This document shows, piece after piece, positions 7,360 through 44,935 of a stretch of 64,000 bases of DNA (its first letter is position 1; each line of letters opens with the position of its first letter). The stretch lies in assembly GCF_963921235.1 (NCBI RefSeq), contig NC_086107.1, positions 92,630,001 to 92,694,000 on the forward strand, in the 5' to 3' direction. The DNA is from Mobula hypostoma. Taxonomy: Eukaryota. Under the pieces are notes generated by a model. That model saw only the letters and a list, made by a program, of their open reading frames with translations. It was not told the origin of the DNA and did no database searches. Both the position numbers and the translations under genes were made by a program.

Positions 7360-7600
7360 CCCAGAACAACATACATAAAATGCTGGAGGAACTCAGTAGG
7401 CCAGGCAACATCTATGGAGAGGAATAAACAGTCATTGTTTTGGGCCGAAACCCTTCATTTGTCCCGATGAAGAGTCTTGGCCCGAAACGTCAACTGTTTA
7501 TTCCTCTCCATAGATGTTTCCTGACCTGCTGAGTTCCTCCAGCAGTTTTTGTGTGTGTTGCTCCGGATTTCCAGCATCTGCAGAATCTCTTGTGTTTATG
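7360..7600. mobile_element. PLE-terminus fold-back unit centred on hammerhead motifs
   Basis: Inverted arms at about 7378-7458 and 7467-7547; flanking repeat aatgaca at 7353-7359 and 7601-7607. Confidence 0.8.
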
Positions 7601-9534
7601 AATGACATGCAAGTGTGTCTCAGCTGGAGAAGATCAGAGGAGGTTCTAGACCAGTAATTTATTGATACTGGGATCATTTATTACTGTCATATGTACCAGG
7701 ATACAATGAAAAACTTGTCTTGCATTCTGTTCATGCAGATCAAATCATTACACAATGCATCGAGACAGAACAAGGTAAAACAGTAACAGAATGCAGAATA
7801 ATGTGCCCACAGAGAGAGTGCAGTGCAGGTAAACAATGAAGTGCACGATCATAACGAGGTAGATTGAAAGGTGCATTATTATACTAGGGACTCAACTACC
7901 ATTGTTCTGAACCTATATTACAGAAAATAATAAGGACCCAGAATGGTGGATTTTATACAGGATACATTCAGAAAGTAGTTGATTTATCAGAAAAGGGAGA
8001 TGGTGATGTTACATTTTCCATCTTATTGTACGAAAGCTCCATTCTGGAGTCTGATAACAATAGGTTTAATGTATGAGGAGCATTTGATGACTCTGAGCCC
8101 ATACTTGCTGGGGTCGATGGGGGGGAGGGGGTCCTCATTGAAACCCGTTGAATACTAAAGCCTAGATAGAGTAGGTGCAGAGAGATGGTTTCCTAAAGTG
8201 GGACGAGAGGATCTCGGAATACAAGGACATCCTCTAGAAGAGAGATGAGGGGAAATTTCTTTAGCCAGAGAATGAAGAATCTGTGGAATTCCTTGCCTCA
8301 AATGGCTGTGGAGGCCAAGTCATTGGGTATATTTAAAGCAGAGGTTGATAGGTTCTTGATTAGTAAGGGTAATGAAGGTTATGGGGAGAGGGCAGGAGAT
8401 TGGGAACGGATAATAAATCAGCCATGATGCGATGTCAGAACAAACTCGATGGACTAAATGGCCTAATTCTACTCTATGTCTTTTGGTCTTATGGAATAGA
8501 AGCCATCCTGTCAAACTGAAGGATTGTAGGTTGAGTGTCTTTCAGCCTTCCTCTGGCTCCCATTGTTTCCTCAGTTCCACAACCACCCCTTCCCCCTGAG
8601 ATTTGTAAAAGAAAATCTGTGGTATGGCAGGACTGGGATTTCCAATAAATGTGCGGAGGTTTCCTGTACATAGAAGTCCTATTCATGGACCTGCCTAGGA
8701 GATTGGGAAACTCTGAAGGGGTCATTGGTCAGCAGGACTATAGTGGGATGAAGTCTTGTTTCTGTATTATAGGACTCTGAAGGCAAGCGCAGCTGATGAA
8801 AGCTTCCTTGTATGCTCAATGATTGGCTTACAAGATTCTTGCAGCGGCTGCTTGGAGGGCGGGATGGTTCAGCTTGTTCATGGATTCAACAGGCATCAAT
8901 GAGGGTTCTGAAGAAACTGAGGGATGGAAGAAGCTTAGTGAGACTGACCAAGGACATCCTCTCAAGCCTAGCCCCTAAATGCTTCTGCAGTCTGGTCCAT
9001 CCATGAAATTTAGTTAATTGCTAATTGAGAAAGGCATGGTTGTTGCAATTTTCTAATCCAGGGCCAGTCTTTGAGTAGGTTCAAAGCCCTGAGATTGATA
9101 GCTTACTTTGTTCCCTGAGGGACAAGGACAAACCAATTACAAAGAAAGCGGAAAAATATGTCCTCTTTATCACTAAGATACCCAACACCACCTTGTCTTA
9201 TAGATCATGAATGAATTCAGTGATGAGTTTGAACAATTGGAAACAGAGGGAGAATGAGACTCAATGGACTCAAACCCGGCCCAATTCTGCTGCTCATTTT
9301 AAAAATATGGCTTCATAATCTTGAATGAAACTTTCGCATTCATTAAGCACAGCCTCCACACATCCAACCTTAAATACTGGTGAGCATGGGCCAATCAACG
9401 ACGGAGGGCTAACCCAGAGATCCCCAAGGACTATGGGCAACATCATAACTAGGTCATTTGCTCGCGGTGTTGATCTGTGAAACTTCCTACTAAATGGCTT
9501 TTACATGTTCTGCTCTCTGGTCTCTAGTAAAAGC

Positions 9535-9870
9535 ACCAGAGATACTGCAGATGCTGGAAATCCAGAGCAACACACACAAAATACAGGAGGAGCTCAGCAG
9601 GACAGGCACCATCTATGGAGGAGAATGAACAGTCGAGGTTTCAGGCTGACACCCTCCATCAGGACTAGAAAGGTAGGGGGGTAGAGGCCAGAATAAGATC
9701 ATCTGCCAGCTTATATTCTTTCCTATCGCTCCCCCCCCATCTTCTTATTCTGGCTGCTGCCTCTGTCCATTCTAGTAGAGTTGCAGCCCAGAACGTCGAC
9801 TGCAAATTCTTCTCCATAGATGCTACCTGAACTGCTGAGTTCCTCCAGCATTTTGAATGTATTGCCAAGA
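9535..9870. mobile_element. PLE-terminus inverted pair
   Basis: Minus-strand terminus (about 9535-9698) followed by a plus-strand terminus (about 9700-9868), both with decayed hammerheads. Confidence 0.75.
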
Positions 9871-11249
9871 TTTATTGGCACTCATATATGTCATGAGAAT
9901 TGTTGTTTTGTAGTAGCGGTACAGCGCAAGACATAAAATTTAACATAAATTACAAATTTTACTAAGTAGAGTAAAGGATGGATGATGAGGCAGCATTCAC
10001 AGATTCACAGGCCCTTCAAACATCTGATGGCGGAGAGGAAGAAGCTGTTTTTGAAATGTTGTGTGAGTCTTCAGGCTCCTGAACCTCCTCCCTGATGGAA
10101 TGGACTTCATGAAGTAGAGCCGTGCAGAGATACAGCGCAGAAGCAGGCCCTTCAGCCCATTGAGTCCATACTGGCCCTCAACCATTGACTTACATTGCTC
10201 TTATCCTGACTCATTTTATTCTCCTCACACTCTCGTTATGACTCTGGGCCTGGACTTGCTGGAGTTTAGAAGTGGGGGGGGCAACTTATTGATACCTAGC
10301 AAATATTGAAAGGTCTAGATAGACTGGATGTGGAGAGGAGGTTTCCTGTAGTGGGGGAGCCTAGGAACAGACAGCACAGCCTCAGAATAGAAGTATGTCC
10401 CTTTAGAACAGGGATGAGCAGGAATTTCTTTAGCCTGGTGCTGCTGAATCTGTGGAATTCATTGCCACAGATAGCTGTGGAAGCCAAGTCACTGGGTATA
10501 TGTAGCGTGGAGGTTGATAGTCAGGACATTAAAGGTTATGGGGAGAAGGCAGGAAAATGGATCTGACAGGGAAAATAATCAACCATGATCAAATGGTGGA
10601 GCAGATATGATGGGCCGAATTCTGTTTCTACGTTTTAAGGTGCAGTGGTCTAACTCTCCACAACTTCTGCCATTCACTCACATGCTGGGGGCAAAGTACA
10701 GCAGATATTTAACCCACCAACCTGCACGTCTTTGGGTGTGGGACTTCCCAGCGGGAAGCCCAAACATTCACAGGTCATTGGGCAAACTTGACGTAAATGG
10801 CACCAGAGGTTGGATTTCTGGTGTTGAAAGGCGGGCTATGCCCCTGTGAAATCCCCCATAAGCAGGATAGTATGCCCCCCCCCACACACAGAGGTGACCT
10901 TTCACACCAAGGTAGAGATCCCACTATACCTAGCCCCATCAAAGCTGGCCTTGTCCCCATTGCTAAAATGACAGACCACCGATCGGCATCACAGCGGGAG
11001 AGTGACGTGCCAACACATTATGATTCTACTAGGAAGCCGGGGTTAAAATTGGGCCCATATTTGCAATGTTGATCCGAGGGATGTTGGTGCTAAAATGTCT
11101 CACTTTACATAACACCAGGAACTTCGCCGTCTGTGAGCCACCTGTTCTTTTTACAGATCTGTATCACAGATGCCGCCCTTGACACAAGTCGACTTTTTAT
11201 GACTGAGTTTCAAAAGTCTTCCAAGGGGGTGTTCTCCATTTGAAGCTCC

Positions 11250-16050: not shown

Positions 16051-16179
16051 ATAAAGATAAGGCTTAGCTTTATTTGTCAGATGTTGATCGAAACATACAG
16101 TGAAATCTGTCAAAACATCAATGACCAACACCACAGGATGTGCTGGGGGCAGAATTAGGCCATTTGGCCCATCGAGTCA

Positions 16180-17850
16180 ATGAACTCATGTCCTCATACT
16201 TTAATTCTACACTATCCCTCTTGGTTCAGTCCCTTCCCACCTACATCTGTGATACATCTCGAGCTCTCGATCTCTTACCTACCTTTCAATTCCCTGGTCC
16301 TGACCGCCTCGTTTTCACCATGGATGTCCAGTCCTTATGAACTTCTACCCCCACAAAATGGCCTTAAATCTCTCTGCTTCTTTCTCAATAAAAGAACCAA
16401 CCAGTTCCCATCCACCACAACCCTCGTTCGTCTAGCAGGACTAGTCCACACCCTCATCAGTATTTCATTCGACTCCTCTCACTTTATCCAGACTCAAGGT
16501 GTAGCCTTGGGCACCGGTGTGGGCCCCAGCTGTGCCTGCCTCTCCACTTGCTACGTGGAACACTCCGCGTTCCAAGCCTTCCATGCTAATGCTCCCCAGC
16601 TCTTCCTTCGCTACATCAGACACCCATGTTCATCAACTTTGCCCCTAACTTCCACCCTGCCCTTAAATTCACTTGGTCCATTTCTGACACCTCCCTTCAT
16701 TTTTCAATCTCTCCGTCTCCATCTCTGGAGACCAACCGTTGGCCAACACCTTTTATAAACTTACTGATTTCCACAGTTCTCTTGACTCTACTCCTTTCCA
16801 CCCTGTCTCCCGTGAAAGTTCTAGTCCCTTTTCTCAGCTCATTTGTCTATTCACTTCAGTTCCCAGCATGTGGCTTTCCTTTCCAGGACACAAGAGATGT
16901 CCTCCTTCTTTAACGAATGGGGTTCCCTTTTCTCCACCATTGACGCTGCCCTCGCCCGGATCTCCTCCATTTCCTGAAAATCCATGCTCATCCCATCTTC
17001 TCACTGCCTTAACAGAGATAGAGTTCCTCTTGTCTTAACTGCCACTCCTTGAGTCTCCACATCCAATATGCCATTCTCCACAACTTCCGCCACCTCCAGA
17101 GGGATCCCACCACCAAACACCTTTTCCTCACCCCCACCCCCCCCCATCTCTGCTTTCCACAGGGCTTGCTCCCTCTGTGATTCCCTCATCCATTTGTCCC
17201 TCCCAACTAACCTTCCTGGCGAGACTTATCCCTGCAAGTGGCCAAAGTGCCCATTCACCTCCATTCAGGGCCCCAAACAGTCCTTCCAGGTGAGGCAACA
17301 CTTCACCTGCGAATCTACTGGGGCCGTCTATTGTGTCCGGTGCTCCCAATGCAGCCTCCTCTACACCGGTGAGGCCTGTCGTAAGTTGGGAGACTGCTTC
17401 TTTGAGCACTTCTGCTCCATCCACCATAAACAGATCTTCCCAGTGGCCAAATATTTTAATTCCAATTCCCATTCCCGTTTTGGCATATCAGTCCATGGCC
17501 TGCTCTTGTGCCTCCCTCAGGATGGAGGAGAAACAGCATATATTTTGTCAGGATAGCCTCCATCCTGATGGCATGAATATCGATTTCTCCTTTAACCTCT
17601 CCTTCTTCCATTCCTTTTGTGGTCCACTCTCCTCTCCAGCCTCTTACCCTTCCTACCCATCAAGCTTCACCTATCACCTTCTCGCTATCCTCCTTCACCT
17701 GTCCCCACCCCCATTTTTTTATTCTGGCATCTTCCCACTTTGCTTCCAGTCCTAAAGATGAGTATCGGCCCAAAACGTCGACTGTTTATTCTTTTCCATA
17801 GATGCTGCCTGACTTGCTGAGTTCCTCCAGCATTTTGTGTGTGTTGCTGT
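16180..17850 (+). mobile_element. Penelope-like retroelement, longest copy (decayed RT + GIY-YIG + 3' terminal repeat)
   Basis: FTMDVQSL, QTQGVALGT.GPS, FLRYI (RT); VYCVRCSQCSLLYTGE (GIY-YIG); pyrimidine-rich 3'UTR with a decayed hammerhead at about 17746-17785. Confidence 0.88.
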
Positions 17851-19769: not shown

Positions 19770-20539
19770 CACTTCAGGGCCCCAGACAGTCCTTCCAGGT
19801 GAGGTGACACTTCACCTGTGAGTCGGCTGGGGTGATATACTGCGTCCGGTGCTCCCGATGTGGCCTTCTATATATTGGCGAGACCCGACGCAGACTGGGA
19901 GACCGCTTTGCTGAACACCTATGCTCTGTCCGCCAGAGAAAGCAGGATCTCCCAGTGGCCACACATTTTAATTCCACATCCCATTCCCATTCTGACATGT
20001 CTATCCACGGCCTCCTCTACTGTAAAGATGAAGCCACACTCAGGTTGGAGGAACAACACCTTATATTCTGTCTGGGTAGCCTCCAACCTGACATTGACTT
20101 CTCTAACTTCCGCCAATGCCCTACCTCCCCCTCGTACTCCATCCGTTATTTATTTTTATACACACATTCTTTCTCTCACTCTCCTGTTTCTCCCTCTGTC
20201 CCTCTGACTATACCCCTTGCCCATCCTCTGGGTCCCCCCCTTGTCTTTCTTCCCGGACCTCCTGTCCCATGATCCTCTCATATCCCCTTTGCCAATCACC
20301 TGTCCAGCTCTCGGCTCCATCCCTCCCCCTCCTGTCTTCTCCTATCATTTTGGATCTCCCCCTCCCCCTCCCACTTTCAAATCTCTTACTAACTCTTCCT
20401 TCAGTTAGTCCTGACGAAGGGTCTCGGCCTGAAACATCGACTGTACCTCTTCCTAGAGATGCTGCCTGACCTGCTGCGTTCACCAGCAACTTTGATGTGT
20501 GTTGCTTGAATTTCCAGCATCTGCAGAATTCCTGTTGTG
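19770..20539 (+). mobile_element. Penelope-like element 3' part (GIY-YIG + terminal repeat), young, with TSD
   Basis: IYCVRCSRCGLLYIGETRRRLGDRFAEH...EEQHLIFCLGSLQP; tgctggagga duplicated at 19760-19769 and 20540-20549. Confidence 0.92.
20406..20443 (+). ncRNA. Hammerhead motif in a young PLE copy; core intact, stem III G>A
   Basis: tagtc-CTGACGA-agggtctcggcct-GAAAC-ATC-gactg; the differences from consensus are CpG-type transitions. Confidence 0.7.
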
Positions 20540-21259
20540 TGCTGGAGGAACTCAGCAGGTCAGGCAGTGTCTATGGAGGGGAATAAACAGTCGATGTTTC
20601 AGGCCCGAAATGTAGACTGTCACAAGGCTCGTCTTCATGAGCGTTAACGTTTATAATGGAATGTCAGTGCTTACAGGCAGATCCAAGATGTTAGTCAAAA
20701 CCTTCAAACGGACCACAGCTGTAGGTCATCTGGATGTCCGCACATAGGAGGTCCCAGTTTGGTGAGTCCGGGGCCAAGGTCTGGAGGTCAGAGGCACAGA
20801 AGGTGGCCCATCCTGGGGTTGGAGTCCCAGGTCAGCAGGTCCAGAGGTCCAGAGGTGTCCCAACGTGGTGCAGGAGTGTGAGTAGGACGGGGTTTGTCTT
20901 GCTGTTGTTGCATTTGTCTTGTATGTTGGCTGTGTGTTGTCGACACGTGTTAGTCATTGACACAAACAACGGATTTCACTGTGTGTTTCAATGCACATGT
21001 GATAAATAAATCTAATCTGGAATCTTGAACCTTGCTGTGGGATCGCAGACATGCCAATACCTACAGGAAGTCCCAGGTGATTGCCTGGAGTGGATCAATA
21101 TTTAGCAGAGTGATATTAAGTCAGTATTCATAGAAGTAACTTGGAAACACAAGGGATTCTGCAGATACTGGAAATCTCTTCATCATCCATATAGCTTTTG
21201 TTCATGGCATTAAACAGTGTCTTTCAGGAGGAAAACTCAGTAATGAACATTTTTGTGCG

Positions 21260-25844: not shown

Positions 25845-26200
25845 TTAGTGTGCGCAAAATGCTGGAGAACTCAGCAGGTCAGCATTATCTACAGAAGGGA
25901 ACAAACAGTCAATGTTTCAGGCCGAGACCCTTCATTGGGACTGGAAAGGAAGGGGGAAAAGCCGGAATAAGAAGGTTGGGTTGGTGGGGGGGAGGCCAGG
26001 AGCACAAGCTGGCAGGTGATGGGTGAGGGGGAAGGTGGGTGGGTGGGGGAGAGGGAATTTATAGTAAGTAACAGAAGGTGTACTGACACACTCAGCAGGT
26101 CAGGCAGCATCTGTGGAGGGGAATAAACAGTCGACGTTTCGAGCCGAAGCCCTTCTTCAGGACTCAGGTCTTGTTTCAGCATCTGCAGAATCTCACTCGT
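25845..26200 (-). mobile_element. Non-coding PLE unit: two tandem termini + inverted tip, 12-bp TSD
   Basis: tagtgatgtgga at 25833-25844 and 26201-26212; hammerheads at 25906-25943 (dead) and 26129-26164 (intact). Confidence 0.88.
26129..26164 (-). ncRNA. Minimal type-I hammerhead ribozyme motif with intact core, in a PLE terminal repeat
   Basis: Minus strand reads agtc-CTGAAGA-a-gggc-ttcg-gctc-GAAAC-GTC-gact: stem I agtc/gact, CUGANGA and GAAA cores, stem II with cUUCGg loop, palindromic ACGU stem III, GUC cleavage triplet. Confidence 0.85.
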
Positions 26201-33543: not shown

Positions 33544-34538
33544 TACATAAAGTGACTGACAGGAAATGATAAAGTAGTGGTGGTGGGGGAGTGTGGTGTT
33601 TTGGTGGGTGATCAGATTTCCTGCTTGGGGAAAGTGACTGGTTTTGAGTCTGGTGCTCCTGGCATGGATGCTATGTTGCCTCCTCCCTGATGGGAGTGGG
33701 ACAAATAGCCTATGAGCAGGGTGGGTGGGATCCTTTACGGTATTGCTGGACTTTTAATGGCACCTTTCTGTATATGTCCTTGATGTTGGTGATGCATTGG
33801 GCTGTGGTGGTTGCCTGTTGTAGAGCCTTCCTAATCGGATGTTCTGTACTGTGCATCTGTAGAAGGTCATGAGTATTGATGTCTCTCAGTACTCATAATG
33901 TGAGTATTGAGGATCATTTGATGGCTCCGGGCTTGTACTCACTGGAATGTATAAGAATGAGGTGGGATCTCATTGAAATCCATTGAATATTGTAAAGACT
34001 GAGTTGAGTGGACTTGAAGAGGATGTTTCCTGTCGTGGTGGAGTCTAGGGCCAGAGAGCACAGCCTTGGAGTAGAAGGCTATCCCTTTAGAACAGAGATG
34101 AGGAGGAATTTCTTTAACCAGAGGCCGGTGAATCTGTGGAATTCATTGCCTCAGTCGGCTGTGAAGGCTTAATCATTGGATATATTTAAAGCAGAGGTTG
34201 ATAGATTGTTGATTAGTAAAGGCATCAAAGGATATGGGTTAGGAATGGGGTTAGGAATGAGAGGCAATATAAGTTAACTATGACAAAATGGCAGAGCAGA
34301 TTTGATAGGCCAAGTGGTCTAATTCTGCTCCCATGTCTTGTGCTCTCATTGTCTGAATACCCATATTGTTCAGGCAGAGCCCAGAATTTAGTAGTGGAGA
34401 CACAAGATACTGCAGATACAGCTGTCCATTTCCCTCCATAGTTTCTGCCTGAGCCAGTGAGTTTCACCAGCAGCTCATTTGTTTCCGCTCCATAACTCTC
34501 TCGTATTGATCGGGTGGGCCTGGTCTTCATCAGCATTA

Positions 34539-35040
34539 GATTCAAGAGGCAGTGTAGATGCTGGAAATCTAGAGCAATACGCACAATTTCTGGACCCATG
34601 TCACCCCAACCGCAATCTATTCCAGCTGCTACCTTCCGGGAAATGGTACCGCAGCATAAAAGCCAGGACCAACAGGCCTGAGACAGCTTCTTCCACCAGG
34701 CCATCACACTGATGAACTCACGCTGATCTGAGTGTATTTCTATGTTACATTGACTGTTCTATTTATTATAAATTATTATAAATTGCTATGATTGCACATT
34801 GCACATTTAGACGGAGACGTAACGTAAAGATTTTTACTCCTCATGTATGTGAAGGATGTAAGAAATAAAGTCAATTCAATTCAACTCAGCGGGTTAGACA
34901 GCATCTATGGATGGGAATAAGCAGTCAATGTGTTGGGCCGCATCCTGATGAAGGGTCCCAGCTGAAATGTCGACTTTTTAATTCCTATCCCTCGATGCTG
35001 CCTGACCTGCTGAGCTCTTCCGGCACATTCTGTGTATTAA
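34539..35040. mobile_element. PLE fold-back unit with 13-bp TSD, itself interrupted by a Rex1/Babar-like 3' end (about 34593-34882, +)
   Basis: ttcatcagcatta at 34526-34538 and 35041-35053; inversion at about 34940, just 5' of CTGATGA (34945-34951). Confidence 0.88.
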
Positions 35041-35394
35041 TTCATCAGCATTAATTAGGTGTAAACTTTGAGTAACTGTTAGCATTGATCGAGCAACACT
35101 GGCGTCTCCCTGGCATTGATTGAGTGGGACCTGGAACGAGGTAAATGTTGATTGGGTGTTAGTGTTGATGGAGCAGGGGCAGATCCTTGTTAGTGTAAAT
35201 TAGGTGCTAATATTATTAAGTTGTACCTGGTGTACCACACTGAAATAGCATAATATTGTAATGCCATTAGATACAGGAGCAGAATCAGGCCATTCTGCCC
35301 ATCGAGTCTGCTCCGCCATTTAATCATGCTAAGTTTTCATCCCTCTCAACCCCATTCTCCTGCATTCTCCCCTTAACCATTGACACCCTTACTT

Positions 35395-43719: not shown

Positions 43720-44935
43720 CACTCAGTGGCCACTTTATTAGATACTTCCTGTGCCTAATATAGCCAGTGAATGTTTGTTCATGGTCTTCTACTCCTGTAG
43801 CCCATCCACTTCAAGGTTTGACGTGTTGTGCATTCAGGAATACTCTTCTGCACACCACTGTTGTAACGTGTGGTTATTTGAGTTACTGTCACCTTCTTGT
43901 CAGCTTGAACCAATGTGGCCATTCTCCTCTGCCCTCTCTCATTAACAAGAAGTTTTCACCCACACACAGATCTGCTGCTCACTGGATTTTTTTTTTGTTG
44001 TTTTTTCACCATTCTCTGTAAACTCTAGAGTAGGGTTCCCAACCGACTCCTTGTATTGGTCCACGGCATGAAAAAAGAGACTTCTGTTTTGTTTTGCTCA
44101 AGAGACTTCTGTGTGTGAAAATCCCAGGAGATCAGCAATTTCTGAGATATTCAAATCACCCCATCTGGCACCAACAATTATTCCACGGTCAAAGTCACTT
44201 AGATCATACTTCTATAGGTTTGAGGTTGGGAGGCTAAACTGCTTTAAGTTCCTCGCCATCCACATCACCAAAGACCTCGCGTGGTCTGTACATACCGGCA
44301 GTGTGGTGAAAAAGGCACAGGGGCACAACTGAGAGCATCCTGACTGGCTGCATCACTGCCTGGTATGGAAACTGTACCTCCCTTAATTGCAGGATTCTGC
44401 AGAGAATGGTGCGGACAGCCCAGCGCATCTGTCGTTGTGAACTTCCCATGATTCCGGAGGTTTACAAAGACAGGTATGTAAAAAGGGCCCAAAGGATCAC
44501 TGGGGACCCAAGTCACCCCAACCACAAACTGTTCCAGCTGCTCCCATCCGGGAAACGGTACCACACCATAAAAGCCAGGACCAACAGGCTCTGGGACAGC
44601 TTCTTCCACCAGGCCATCAGACTGATTAACTCACGCTGATTTGAGTGTATTTCTATGTTACATTGACTGTTCTATTTATTATAAATTATTATAAATTACT
44701 ATGATTTAGACGGAGATGTAACTTAAAGATTTTTACTCCTGTAAGAAATAAAGTCAATTCAATTCAGTTCAATTCAATTCTACCCTATTCTGATATTTGG
44801 TCTGAACAACAACTGAACCTCTTGACCATGTCTGCATGCTTTTATGCATTAAGTTGCTGCTACATGATTGGCTGATTAGATAGATGCATTAATGAGCAAG
44901 TGTACAGGTGTACCTAATAAAGTGGCCACTGAGAG
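43720..44935 (-). mobile_element. Tc1-like element with both TIRs, carrying a nested LINE and a hAT fragment
   Basis: TIRs cactcagtggccactttattag / ctaataaagtggccactgagag; same body as 14216-14753. Confidence 0.9.
44215..44780 (+). mobile_element. Young Rex1/Babar-like LINE 3' end with (AATTC)n tail
   Basis: VRTAQRICRCELP...DPSHPNHKLFQLLPSGKRY; ttcta at both junctions (44210-44214, 44778-44782); near-identical to 34593-34882. Confidence 0.88.

What the first reader, a model, noticed from the sequence alone, without database searches (positions are those of the whole stretch)
34526..35053. Non-coding fold-back unit hinged on the ribozyme, inserted with a perfect 13-bp TSD
Removing the nested LINE (about 34593-34882) leaves about 210 bp: an antisense PLE terminus running into the hammerhead, then flipping at about 34940 to a sense hammerhead + terminus. 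It is bounded by ttcatcagcatta on both sides, so the hairpin arrived as one insertion with no coding sequence. With 7360-7600 and 25845-26200, this suggests either a non-autonomous, retrozyme-like palindromic mobile RNA or a recurrent PLE integration step that switches strand at the ribozyme.
Basis: partly seen in the sequence, partly recalled or inferred. Interest (0 to 1): 0.7.

Follow-up and report, generated by a model that had tools for sequence, protein, structure and literature searches.

The report
Truncated fold-back Penelope-like element copy
This is a 212-bp, non-coding, hairpin-shaped remnant of a Penelope-like jumping gene that arrived in one insertion event and was later split by a LINE fragment; it is the usual dead-end by-product of how these elements integrate, not a new kind of mobile RNA.

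Summary
A perfect 13-bp direct repeat (34526-34538 / 35041-35053) brackets two inverted copies of a Penelope-like element (PLE) 3' terminus. A younger 5'-truncated LINE 3' end (34593-34882) splits the left arm. The strand flips at 34940-34944, at the 5' edge of a minimal hammerhead motif that Rfam does not detect.

I compared it with 25 other head-to-head pairs in the same genome. One arm usually starts at a fixed point, the 5' edge of ribozyme helix I, where many solo short copies also start. The partner arm's inner end varies over about 90 nt. Fold-backs occur in several subfamilies. Young ones have near-identical arms and their own 9-15-bp target duplications. 22 of 26 carry the known 30-40-bp PLE 'tail' on exactly one arm.

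So these are recurrent, single-event products of PLE integration, probably from priming on both target strands followed by a template switch. They are not one replicating palindromic or retrozyme-like family. The published PLE literature already describes inverted 5'-truncated copies and one-sided tails, and this scan reached the same verdict in another genome. It is ordinary, apart from a modest quantitative point about the fixed 5' end and the one-tail rule.

The parts
34526..34538 (.). Left copy of the 13-bp target-site duplication TTCATCAGCATTA
   Evidence: Exact direct repeat, family D4. It abuts the outer end of the tailed arm.
34539..34592 (-). Distal part of the inverted (antisense) PLE arm, including the roughly 35-nt 'tail' (profile about 193-250)
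   Evidence: nhmmer hit 34593..34544 on the minus strand, profile 193-246. 37 of 47 columns match the family majority.
34593..34882 (+). Nested, younger 5'-truncated LINE 3' end with a (CAATT)n-like tail
   Evidence: Second copy in the window at 44505-44765. 39 other genomic copies at 92-94% identity. Other copies extend upstream by variable lengths.
34883..34940 (-). Proximal part of the inverted arm. It ends inside the antisense of hammerhead helix II (profile about 132-136). Bases 34941-34942 cannot be assigned.
   Evidence: nhmmer hit 34943..34883 on the minus strand, profile 132-190. Read directly.
34943..35040 (+). Sense PLE arm without a tail (profile about 119-216). It starts 2 nt before CUGAUGA.
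   Evidence: nhmmer hit 34942..35041 on the plus strand, profile 118-216.
34945..34974 (+). Decayed minimal hammerhead core: CTGATGA at 34945-34951, degraded helix II, GAAA at 34964-34967, GTC^GAC at 34969-34974. Only 2 nt of the helix I 5' strand remain.
   Evidence: Read. No Rfam match. Motif compared with PMC4209133.
35041..35053 (.). Right copy of the 13-bp target-site duplication

Best explanation
The unit is one old insertion made by a Penelope-like element's own integration machinery from a short template RNA. It is a dead-on-arrival by-product, not a mobile element in its own right.

Shown:
- Both arms are the last 100-135 nt of a PLE insertion unit.
- Each arm ends outward at one of the family's two 3' termini, one with and one without the roughly 35-nt tail.
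- The whole unit sits in one 13-bp target duplication.
- The two arms are equally diverged.
- A LINE fragment landed in the left arm later.
- Across the genome such head-to-head pairs arise repeatedly and independently.

Inferred:
- The template is a short RNA whose 5' end lies at the 5' edge of hammerhead helix I. This may be a transcription start, because the sequence there is initiator-like (my own reading of the sequence, not a tool result). Reverse transcription starts inside that RNA at either of two sites about 35 nt apart.
- Both strands of the staggered target cut prime a cDNA. One cDNA reaches the RNA's 5' end, which gives the fixed junction side. The other is still incomplete, which gives the variable side, often stalled in GC-rich helix II.
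- A template jump or end-joining links the two cDNAs head to head.

The ribozyme marks where the RNA starts and where reverse transcriptase pauses. Nothing suggests that its cleavage makes the junction.
For: Single event:
- The exact 13-bp TSD abuts both outer ends.
- Whole-unit exact TSDs of 9-15 nt flank 7 of 25 other head-to-head pairs, against 1 of 50 controls reaching 9 nt.
- The two arms are 80% and 81% identical to the family majority over the same columns.

Orientation bias:
- 26 head-to-head pairs against 1 tail-to-tail pair within +/-60 bp.
- The ratio is 19 to 1 after dropping the 7 pairs that were fetched by a fold-back query.

Recurrent, not inherited:
- At least one arm starts at profile 99-123 in 21 of 26 pairs. 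By eye the true start is 117-121, because local alignments overrun the hinge.
- In those 21 pairs the partner arm starts at <=124 in 10, at 128-136 in 5 and at 148-193 in 6.
- The five junctions most like the window's differ from each other by 1-6 nt.
- Fold-backs occur in at least three subfamilies.
- Arms within a locus are more alike than arms from different loci in 17 of 21 testable pairs. Examples are L021 98%, L025 93% and L005 90%.

Fixed 5' end:
- In an unselected 264 kb (20 random 10-kb pieces plus the window), 20 of 68 arm hits start at profile 101-126, against 1 of 68 at 61-100.
- Solo short copies with unique flanks start there too.
- In L015:6096 a 14-nt TSD places the start at the A of AGYC|CUGA.

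Two 3' termini:
- 22 of 68 hits end at 209-228 and 28 of 68 at 246-251.
- Exactly one arm carries the tail in 22 of 26 pairs. About half would be expected if the arms were independent. My binomial estimate is P about 3e-4.

Literature read:
- PMC8557442 (passages): an inverted 5'-truncated copy adjacent to the 5' end, and a 30-40-bp tail often at one end only, are typical of PLEs.
- PMC11167929 (main text): an anole PLE protein cleaves and extends both target strands. It starts reverse transcription at two internal sites whose spacing equals the tail. It does not need ribozyme cleavage.
Against: - No RNA data. The fixed 5' end is inferred from DNA copies only. The public runs found were contigs that cannot show RNA ends.
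- For the window's own unit, the arms are no more alike than random arm pairs: 73% against a mean of 72%. Its single-event origin therefore rests on the TSD and on the equal divergence of the arms.
- The arm that carries the tail does not track the arm that is complete. By my tally, about 7 pairs go one way and 8 the other. So a simple model of two enzymes on one RNA is not supported, and the reason for the one-tail rule is unexplained.
- None of 131 arms continues into a shared downstream sequence. I therefore never saw the junction between the arm and the element's 5' region that the anole model predicts in full-length copies.
- Three pairs with 20-39-bp gaps between the arms (window 9533-9874, L006:844-1070, L007:266-777) may be independent neighbours.
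- The sample is small: 26 pairs, of which 7 were selected by similarity to the query.
Confidence: 0.75

Rival explanations
1. A self-propagating, non-autonomous palindromic element, retrozyme-like or SINE-like. A hairpin RNA carrying the ribozyme is transcribed and copied again and again, so all fold-backs descend from a master palindrome.
For: - The whole 158-bp hinge region matches about 37 other loci end to end at 75-81% identity, out of 2398 first-look candidates of which 40 were scored.
- L003, L004 and L008 have near-identical, near-symmetric junctions.
- Animal retrozymes are reported to derive from PLE pLTRs (bioRxiv 10.64898/2026.07.22.740005; abstract and Results read).
Against: - The junction position on the partner arm ranges over about 90 nt, and even the closest cases differ by 1-6 nt.
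- Fold-backs occur in several subfamilies with matching arms. No arm-specific differences were shared between copies beyond CpG decay (by eye).
- Unit ends are the PLE 3' termini, not the ribozyme cleavage site. Only 3 of 68 hits start at profile 146-152.
- There are no tandem arrays of the unit. Only 5 same-strand neighbour pairs were seen.
- In the anole PLE the template needs sequence beyond the reverse-transcription start site (PMC11167929). Inserted copies lack that sequence.
Confidence: 0.08
2. The element and the single event are the same, but the fold-back forms by snap-back. One cDNA reaches the RNA's 5' end, folds on itself and copies itself. No second priming event is needed.
For: - Some junctions look exactly like self-priming with 2-nt pairing, for example CAGGACT|GATGAAGG in L064. 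L051 has a 13-nt inverted stub.
- Near-symmetric hinges occur in L004, L026 and window 7361-7597.
Against: - A self-copy cannot be longer than its template. Yet in the window unit, L002, L006, L007 and L027 the incomplete arm carries the tail while the complete arm lacks it.
- Snap-back predicts equal outer ends, but 22 of 26 pairs have one tail only.
- It does not by itself join the second target end.
Confidence: 0.12
3. Two independent PLE insertions that happen to lie head to head, or a DNA transposon (MITE) with terminal inverted repeats.
For: - The family is very dense, with about 30 fragments in this 64-kb window, so chance neighbours do occur.
- Three pairs with 20-39-bp gaps and unlike arms may be such neighbours.
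Against: - One 13-bp TSD spans the whole unit, with none around either arm alone.
- There is no spacing between the arms, and the arms are equally diverged.
- The head-to-head to tail-to-tail ratio is 19 to 1 in the unselected data.
- The arms are a retroelement terminus found downstream of a GIY-YIG ORF.
- TSD length varies from 8 to 15 nt, which is unlike a DNA transposon family.
Confidence: 0.03

Closest known systems
Canonical endonuclease-positive Penelope-like element insertion units: pLTR, adjacent inverted 5'-truncated copy and 30-40-bp tail (Craig et al. 2021, PMC8557442, which cites Evgen'ev & Arkhipova 2005 and Arkhipova 2006)
   Same: - An inverted 5'-truncated copy abuts the 5' end of a sense copy.
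- The tail is on one end only.
- The hammerhead lies in the terminal repeat.
- A GIY-YIG ORF lies upstream in longer copies.
- The insertions are complex tandem or inverted structures.
- The target is a microsatellite or minisatellite.
   Different: - Both copies here are cut down to the last 100-135 nt, so no ORF and no pLTR pair is left.
- The sense copy's 5' end is not random. It sits at the ribozyme's 5' edge in about a third of all copies.
Poseidon element PAc of the green anole, reconstituted in vitro (Frangieh et al. 2024, PMC11167929)
   Same: - There are two 3' termini about 35 nt apart, matching its two internal reverse-transcription start sites and the tail.
- The ribozyme lies about 100 nt upstream of those sites.
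- Ribozyme-cut ends are rarely used.
- Both target strands can be extended, which would give head-to-head products.
   Different: - In PAc the ORF starts at ribozyme stem II. Here the arm has no open frame running on (read).
- No biochemical data exist for this family.
- The paper does not report head-to-head products.
L1 twin priming (5'-inverted L1 insertions). Mechanism recalled from Ostertag & Kazazian 2001, not read here. The abstract listing of PMC2837659 was seen.
   Same: A single TSD-flanked event gives an inverted 5' part joined to a sense 3' part. It is explained by priming from both target strands and joining of two cDNAs.
   Different: - In L1 the inverted part comes from further upstream in the RNA, and only one end is a 3' end.
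- Here both outer ends are element 3' ends, and both arms copy the same terminal stretch.
Animal non-LTR retrozymes (Li, Clavereau & Pollet, bioRxiv 10.64898/2026.07.22.740005). Cervera & de la Pena 2020 is recalled, not read.
   Same: Short, non-coding sequences that carry a hammerhead and derive from PLE terminal regions.
   Different: - Retrozymes are direct tandem repeats whose units are bounded by ribozyme cleavage sites and which are thought to circularise.
- This unit is an inverted pair bounded by reverse-transcription start sites, and it is dispersed as single units.

Membership tests
Penelope-like element (EN+), truncated insertion unit | The family encodes a reverse transcriptase followed by a C-terminal GIY-YIG endonuclease | tested here: inconclusive
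   The GIY-YIG part is met. Window 19808-20272 hits PF01541 at E 3.4e-5, 24.5 bits, against a cut-off of 22.6.

The RT part is seen only weakly. Related protein P0006 is 68% identical over 97% of the 95-aa endonuclease query and has RVT_1 at E 8.8e-5, below the cut-off. It gave no Pfam GIY-YIG hit itself.

The decayed frames at window 16125-17038 gave no Pfam hit.
Penelope-like element (EN+), truncated insertion unit | Hammerhead ribozyme motif in the terminal repeat | tested here: inconclusive
   The motif fits the published minimal PLE hammerhead descriptor by eye. Rfam covariance models do not detect it, even in an intact copy. No cleavage assay was possible.
Penelope-like element (EN+), truncated insertion unit | An optional 30-40-bp tail, giving two classes of 3' end, usually at one end of the unit | tested here: met
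   3' ends are bimodal: 22 of 68 hits at profile 209-228 and 28 of 68 at 246-251. The tail is on exactly one arm in 22 of 26 pairs, including the window unit.
Penelope-like element (EN+), truncated insertion unit | An inverted 5'-truncated copy adjacent to the 5' end, inside one target duplication | tested here: met
   Window unit. Other loci: whole-unit TSDs of 9-15 nt in 7 of 25 pairs.
Non-LTR retrozyme | Direct tandem repeats of the hammerhead-bearing unit | tested here: not met
   The two copies are inverted, not direct. Only 5 same-strand neighbour pairs were seen in all the data.
Non-LTR retrozyme | Unit boundaries at the ribozyme self-cleavage site; circular RNA | tested here: not met
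   Boundaries lie at profile 117-121 and at 215/250, not at the GUC^ site at 148|149. Only 3 of 68 hits start at 146-152. Circular RNA could not be tested.
MITE / DNA transposon with terminal inverted repeats | Fixed TSD length, termini unrelated to retroelements, transposase-bearing relatives | tested here: not met
   TSDs range from 8 to 15 nt. The arms equal a PLE 3' terminus.
L1-type twin-priming product | The inverted segment derives from RNA upstream of the sense segment; only one outer end is a 3' end | tested here: not met
   Both arms cover the same profile stretch, and both outer ends are 3' termini.

The most novel reading that the evidence does not exclude
The head-to-head pairs may be the genomic footprint of an obligatorily two-ended integration reaction by a dimeric PLE enzyme.

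In this reading each target strand primes on a dedicated short RNA that begins exactly at the ribozyme's 5' edge. The two primings use the two different start sites, which gives one tail per unit (22 of 26 pairs). The junction forms by a jump from the RNA's 5' end onto the opposite cDNA, with helix II of the ribozyme acting as a pause site.

If this is right, these abundant 'junk' units would be a natural readout of PLE integration steps that have not been seen in vitro. They would also explain the long-unexplained inverted repeats and one-sided tails of PLEs.
Probability: 0.3. Interest if true: 0.55.

Novelty: new member of a known kind. Interest (0 to 1): 0.25.

Why it matters
As an object it is ordinary: a decayed, truncated PLE insertion of a published type.

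Its modest value is as data on an integration mechanism that is still poorly understood. Three regularities could be measured genome-wide and tested in vitro:
- a fixed 5' end at the ribozyme's edge;
- a variable partner end that clusters in helix II;
- an almost obligatory single tail.

It also warns annotators that such units can be mistaken for MITEs, SINEs or retrozymes.

Tried and rejected
- **Rfam:** no hammerhead at gathering score in the whole window, at E<=10 in 34400-35200, or at E<=10 in the intact copy at 20380-20480. I therefore relied on the published minimal-motif description.
- **RNA evidence:** no RNA holder was listed. The four runs laid were contigs, which cannot show RNA starts or ends. 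They gave only DNA-level hints: depth rises 3- to 5-fold from the bin containing 20407, and loose ends occur at 20409-20411 and at 20504-6, 20527, 20533 and 20538-40.
- **Empty site in related rays:** not testable.
- **A larger random sample:** I used short stretches instead.
- **Reverse transcriptase in the window's decayed frames (16125-17038):** no Pfam hit.
- **Continuation of the arm into a shared 5' region or ORF:** none among 131 arms.
- **Link between which arm is complete and which carries the tail:** none (about 7 against 8; my tally).
- **Arm-to-arm similarity as proof of a common origin for the window's own unit:** uninformative (73% against a mean of 72%).
- **Splice-acceptor origin of the fixed end:** a pyrimidine tract plus CAG lies just upstream. 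I rejected this because a TSD abuts the start directly in L015:6096, which leaves no room for an upstream exon.
- **Covariation test of the ribozyme helices:** considered and not run, because the copies are neutrally decaying.
- **Literature on a mechanism for PLE fold-backs:** searches found nothing beyond the papers cited.

Full report
**What is there**

Reading 34300-35300 and the repeat finder confirm an exact 13-bp direct repeat, TTCATCAGCATTA, at 34526-34538 and 35041-35053. Three pieces lie between the two copies:
- 34539-34592, antisense to an abundant repeat;
- 34593-34882, an unrelated insert;
- 34883-35040, whose first 58 nt continue the antisense copy and whose last 98 nt are the same repeat in sense.

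Without the insert the unit is 212 bp. The strand changes at 34940-34944. The sequence there reads ...GGGCCG/CA/TC-CTGATGA..., so the sense arm starts 2 nt before a CUGAUGA box.

**The arms are a PLE terminus**

Other copies in the window that carry the CUGAUGA...GAAAC core continue upstream through a roughly 300-bp C-rich stretch into an ORF. That ORF (19808-20272) hits Pfam GIY-YIG above the curated cut-off (E 3.4e-5).

A search for longer relatives found predicted proteins of rays. One of them, P0006, is 68% identical over 97% of the endonuclease query and has a weak RVT_1 stretch (E 8.8e-5, below cut-off). It gave no Pfam GIY-YIG hit itself. The window's own upstream frames are too decayed for Pfam.

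A GIY-YIG ORF, a terminal hammerhead-like motif and the features described below add up to a Penelope-like element (PLE).

**The ribozyme**

Rfam reports no hammerhead in the window, in the finding, or in an intact copy.

In intact copies the motif has these parts:
- a 5-bp helix I, CAGUC/GACUG;
- CUGAUGA, followed by one extra A;
- a GC-rich helix II;
- GAAAC, followed directly by GUC.

[quoted passage not shown] That also explains the Rfam miss.

In the window's unit the motif is decayed. Helix II is broken, and only 2 nt of the helix I 5' strand remain because the inverted arm replaces the rest.

**The nested insert**

The insert has a second copy at 44505-44765. It matches 39 other genomic places at 92-94% identity (4203 first-look candidates, 40 scored). 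Six fetched copies share its 3' end, which has a (CAATT)n-like tail, and extend 45 to more than 400 bp further upstream.

It is much younger than the PLE arms, which are about 80% identical to their family majority.

**Is the fold-back one family or a recurring event?**

The 158-bp hinge region matches about 37 other loci end to end. On its face that suggests a family. I tested this in three steps.

1. I built a 253-position profile of an intact PLE 3' region. In it the C of CUGAUGA is position 121 and the cleavage site is 148|149.
2. I scanned the window, eight loci and 20 random 10-kb pieces.
3. I scanned 39 short stretches around the best hits of a single-arm query.

**Finding 1: two classes of 3' end.** In the unselected 264 kb, 22 of 68 hits end at 209-228 and 28 of 68 at 246-251. 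These are the tail-less and tailed ends known for PLEs.

**Finding 2: 5' ends pile up at the ribozyme's edge.** 20 of 68 hits start at 101-126, against 1 of 68 at 61-100 and 3 of 68 at the cleavage site (146-152). Many of these are solo short copies with unique flanks. In L015:6096 a 14-nt TSD puts the start at the A of AGYC|CUGA.

**Finding 3: strong orientation bias.** Of adjacent opposite-strand pairs, 26 are head to head and 1 is tail to tail. The ratio is 19 to 1 without the 7 pairs that were fetched by a fold-back query.

**Finding 4: one side fixed, the other variable.** In 21 of 26 pairs one arm starts at the helix I edge. The partner arm starts at <=124 in 10 of those pairs, at 128-136 in 5 and at 148-193 in 6. 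The five junctions most like the window's fall at about 132, 133, 135, 138 and 138, so they are similar but not identical.

Four pairs have sense copies that begin far from the ribozyme: L025, L037, window 9533-9874 and L007:266-777. So the inverted partner is not tied to the ribozyme.

**Finding 5: arms within a locus match each other.** They are more alike than arms from different loci in 17 of 21 testable pairs. L021 reaches 98%. Fold-backs occur in at least three subfamilies.

**Finding 6: whole-unit TSDs.** Exact TSDs of 9-15 nt flank 7 of 25 pairs, against 1 of 50 controls.

**Finding 7: fold-backs are common among short copies.** Among the 39 arms found with a single-arm query:
- 22 continue upstream;
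- 7 are solo short copies;
- 10 have an inverted segment at their 5' end.

Together these results show repeated, independent, single-event formation. They do not fit descent from a palindromic master.

**The window's own unit**

Its arms are old, at 80% and 81% identity to the family majority over the same columns. They are no more alike than random arm pairs. The evidence that it is one event is the perfect TSD that abuts both outer ends, the absence of spacing between the arms, and their equal divergence.

Its left arm carries the tail and stops inside helix II. Its right arm lacks the tail and reaches the helix I edge.

**Mechanism (inferred)**

The literature describes the inverted 5'-truncated copy and the one-sided 30-40-bp tail as typical and unexplained PLE features (PMC8557442).

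For an anole PLE, the purified protein behaves as follows (PMC11167929):
- It cleaves and extends both target strands.
- It starts reverse transcription at two internal RNA sites whose spacing equals the tail.
- It needs RNA beyond those sites.
- It does not need ribozyme cleavage.

The simplest account of my data is that both target strands prime on a short RNA that begins at the helix I edge. One cDNA runs to that end, the other is incomplete, and a template jump or end-joining links them.

Pure snap-back of one cDNA is disfavoured for two reasons. In five units, including the window's, the incomplete arm has the tail that the complete arm lacks. And 22 of 26 pairs have exactly one tail, against about half expected if the arms were independent.

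Which arm is complete does not predict which arm has the tail (about 7 against 8). The one-tail rule therefore remains unexplained.

Because inserted copies end at the start sites, they should lack the downstream RNA needed to be copied again, if this family behaves like the anole element. That would make them dead on arrival.

**What remains open**

- There is no RNA evidence. Searches yielded contigs only.
- None of 131 arms continued into a shared 5' region.
- The sample is small.
- No empty site in a relative could be sought.

**Comparison and verdict**

The unit is a minimal member of the known class of complex PLE insertions. It works like a two-ended variant of twin priming, but it is not the L1 type, because both outer ends are 3' ends. 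It is not a retrozyme: it is not tandem and its boundaries are not at the cleavage site. It is not a MITE.

Interest is low. The only point of some value is the set of quantitative regularities that could guide work on PLE integration.

Noticed in passing
window 25845-26190 (minus strand): Complex PLE insertion inside an 11-bp direct repeat, CCACATCACTA. It consists of a 19-nt inverted tail fragment, a short sense unit starting at the helix I edge, and then a second, 5'-truncated sense unit.
   Followed up: partly
window 20541-20620: An inverted arm (profile about 197 to 138) follows directly after the tail of a long sense copy. A 16-nt sense piece follows that. The hinge lies inside helix II, and the outer end is not at a normal 3' terminus.
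   Followed up: no
window 7361-7597: A second fold-back of the same kind. It has a near-symmetric hinge, a tail on the right arm only, and a 7-9-nt flanking repeat (T[T/G]AATGACA).
   Followed up: yes
window 34480-35200 (flanks of the unit): The insertion target looks like a roughly 30-bp minisatellite (units such as GCATTGATCGAG..., family D1). This is in line with the reported PLE bias for simple repeats.
   Followed up: no
window 20291-20541 and loci L002, L021, L024-L027: A young PLE subfamily with near-identical copies. Contigs from public runs of four coded organisms match it at 90% or more, with loose ends at 20409-20411 and at four 3' positions. There may be more than two 3' termini.
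   Followed up: partly
window 34308-34338 and 35269-35299: A 31-nt inverted pair (74% complementary) that belongs to a different repeat family. It flanks the whole region at a distance of 930 nt (I1).
   Followed up: no
loci L002, L006, L007, L058 and window 34930-34940: The inner ends of incomplete arms cluster at profile 132-139, inside the GC-rich helix II of the ribozyme. This may be a reverse-transcriptase pause site.
   Followed up: partly
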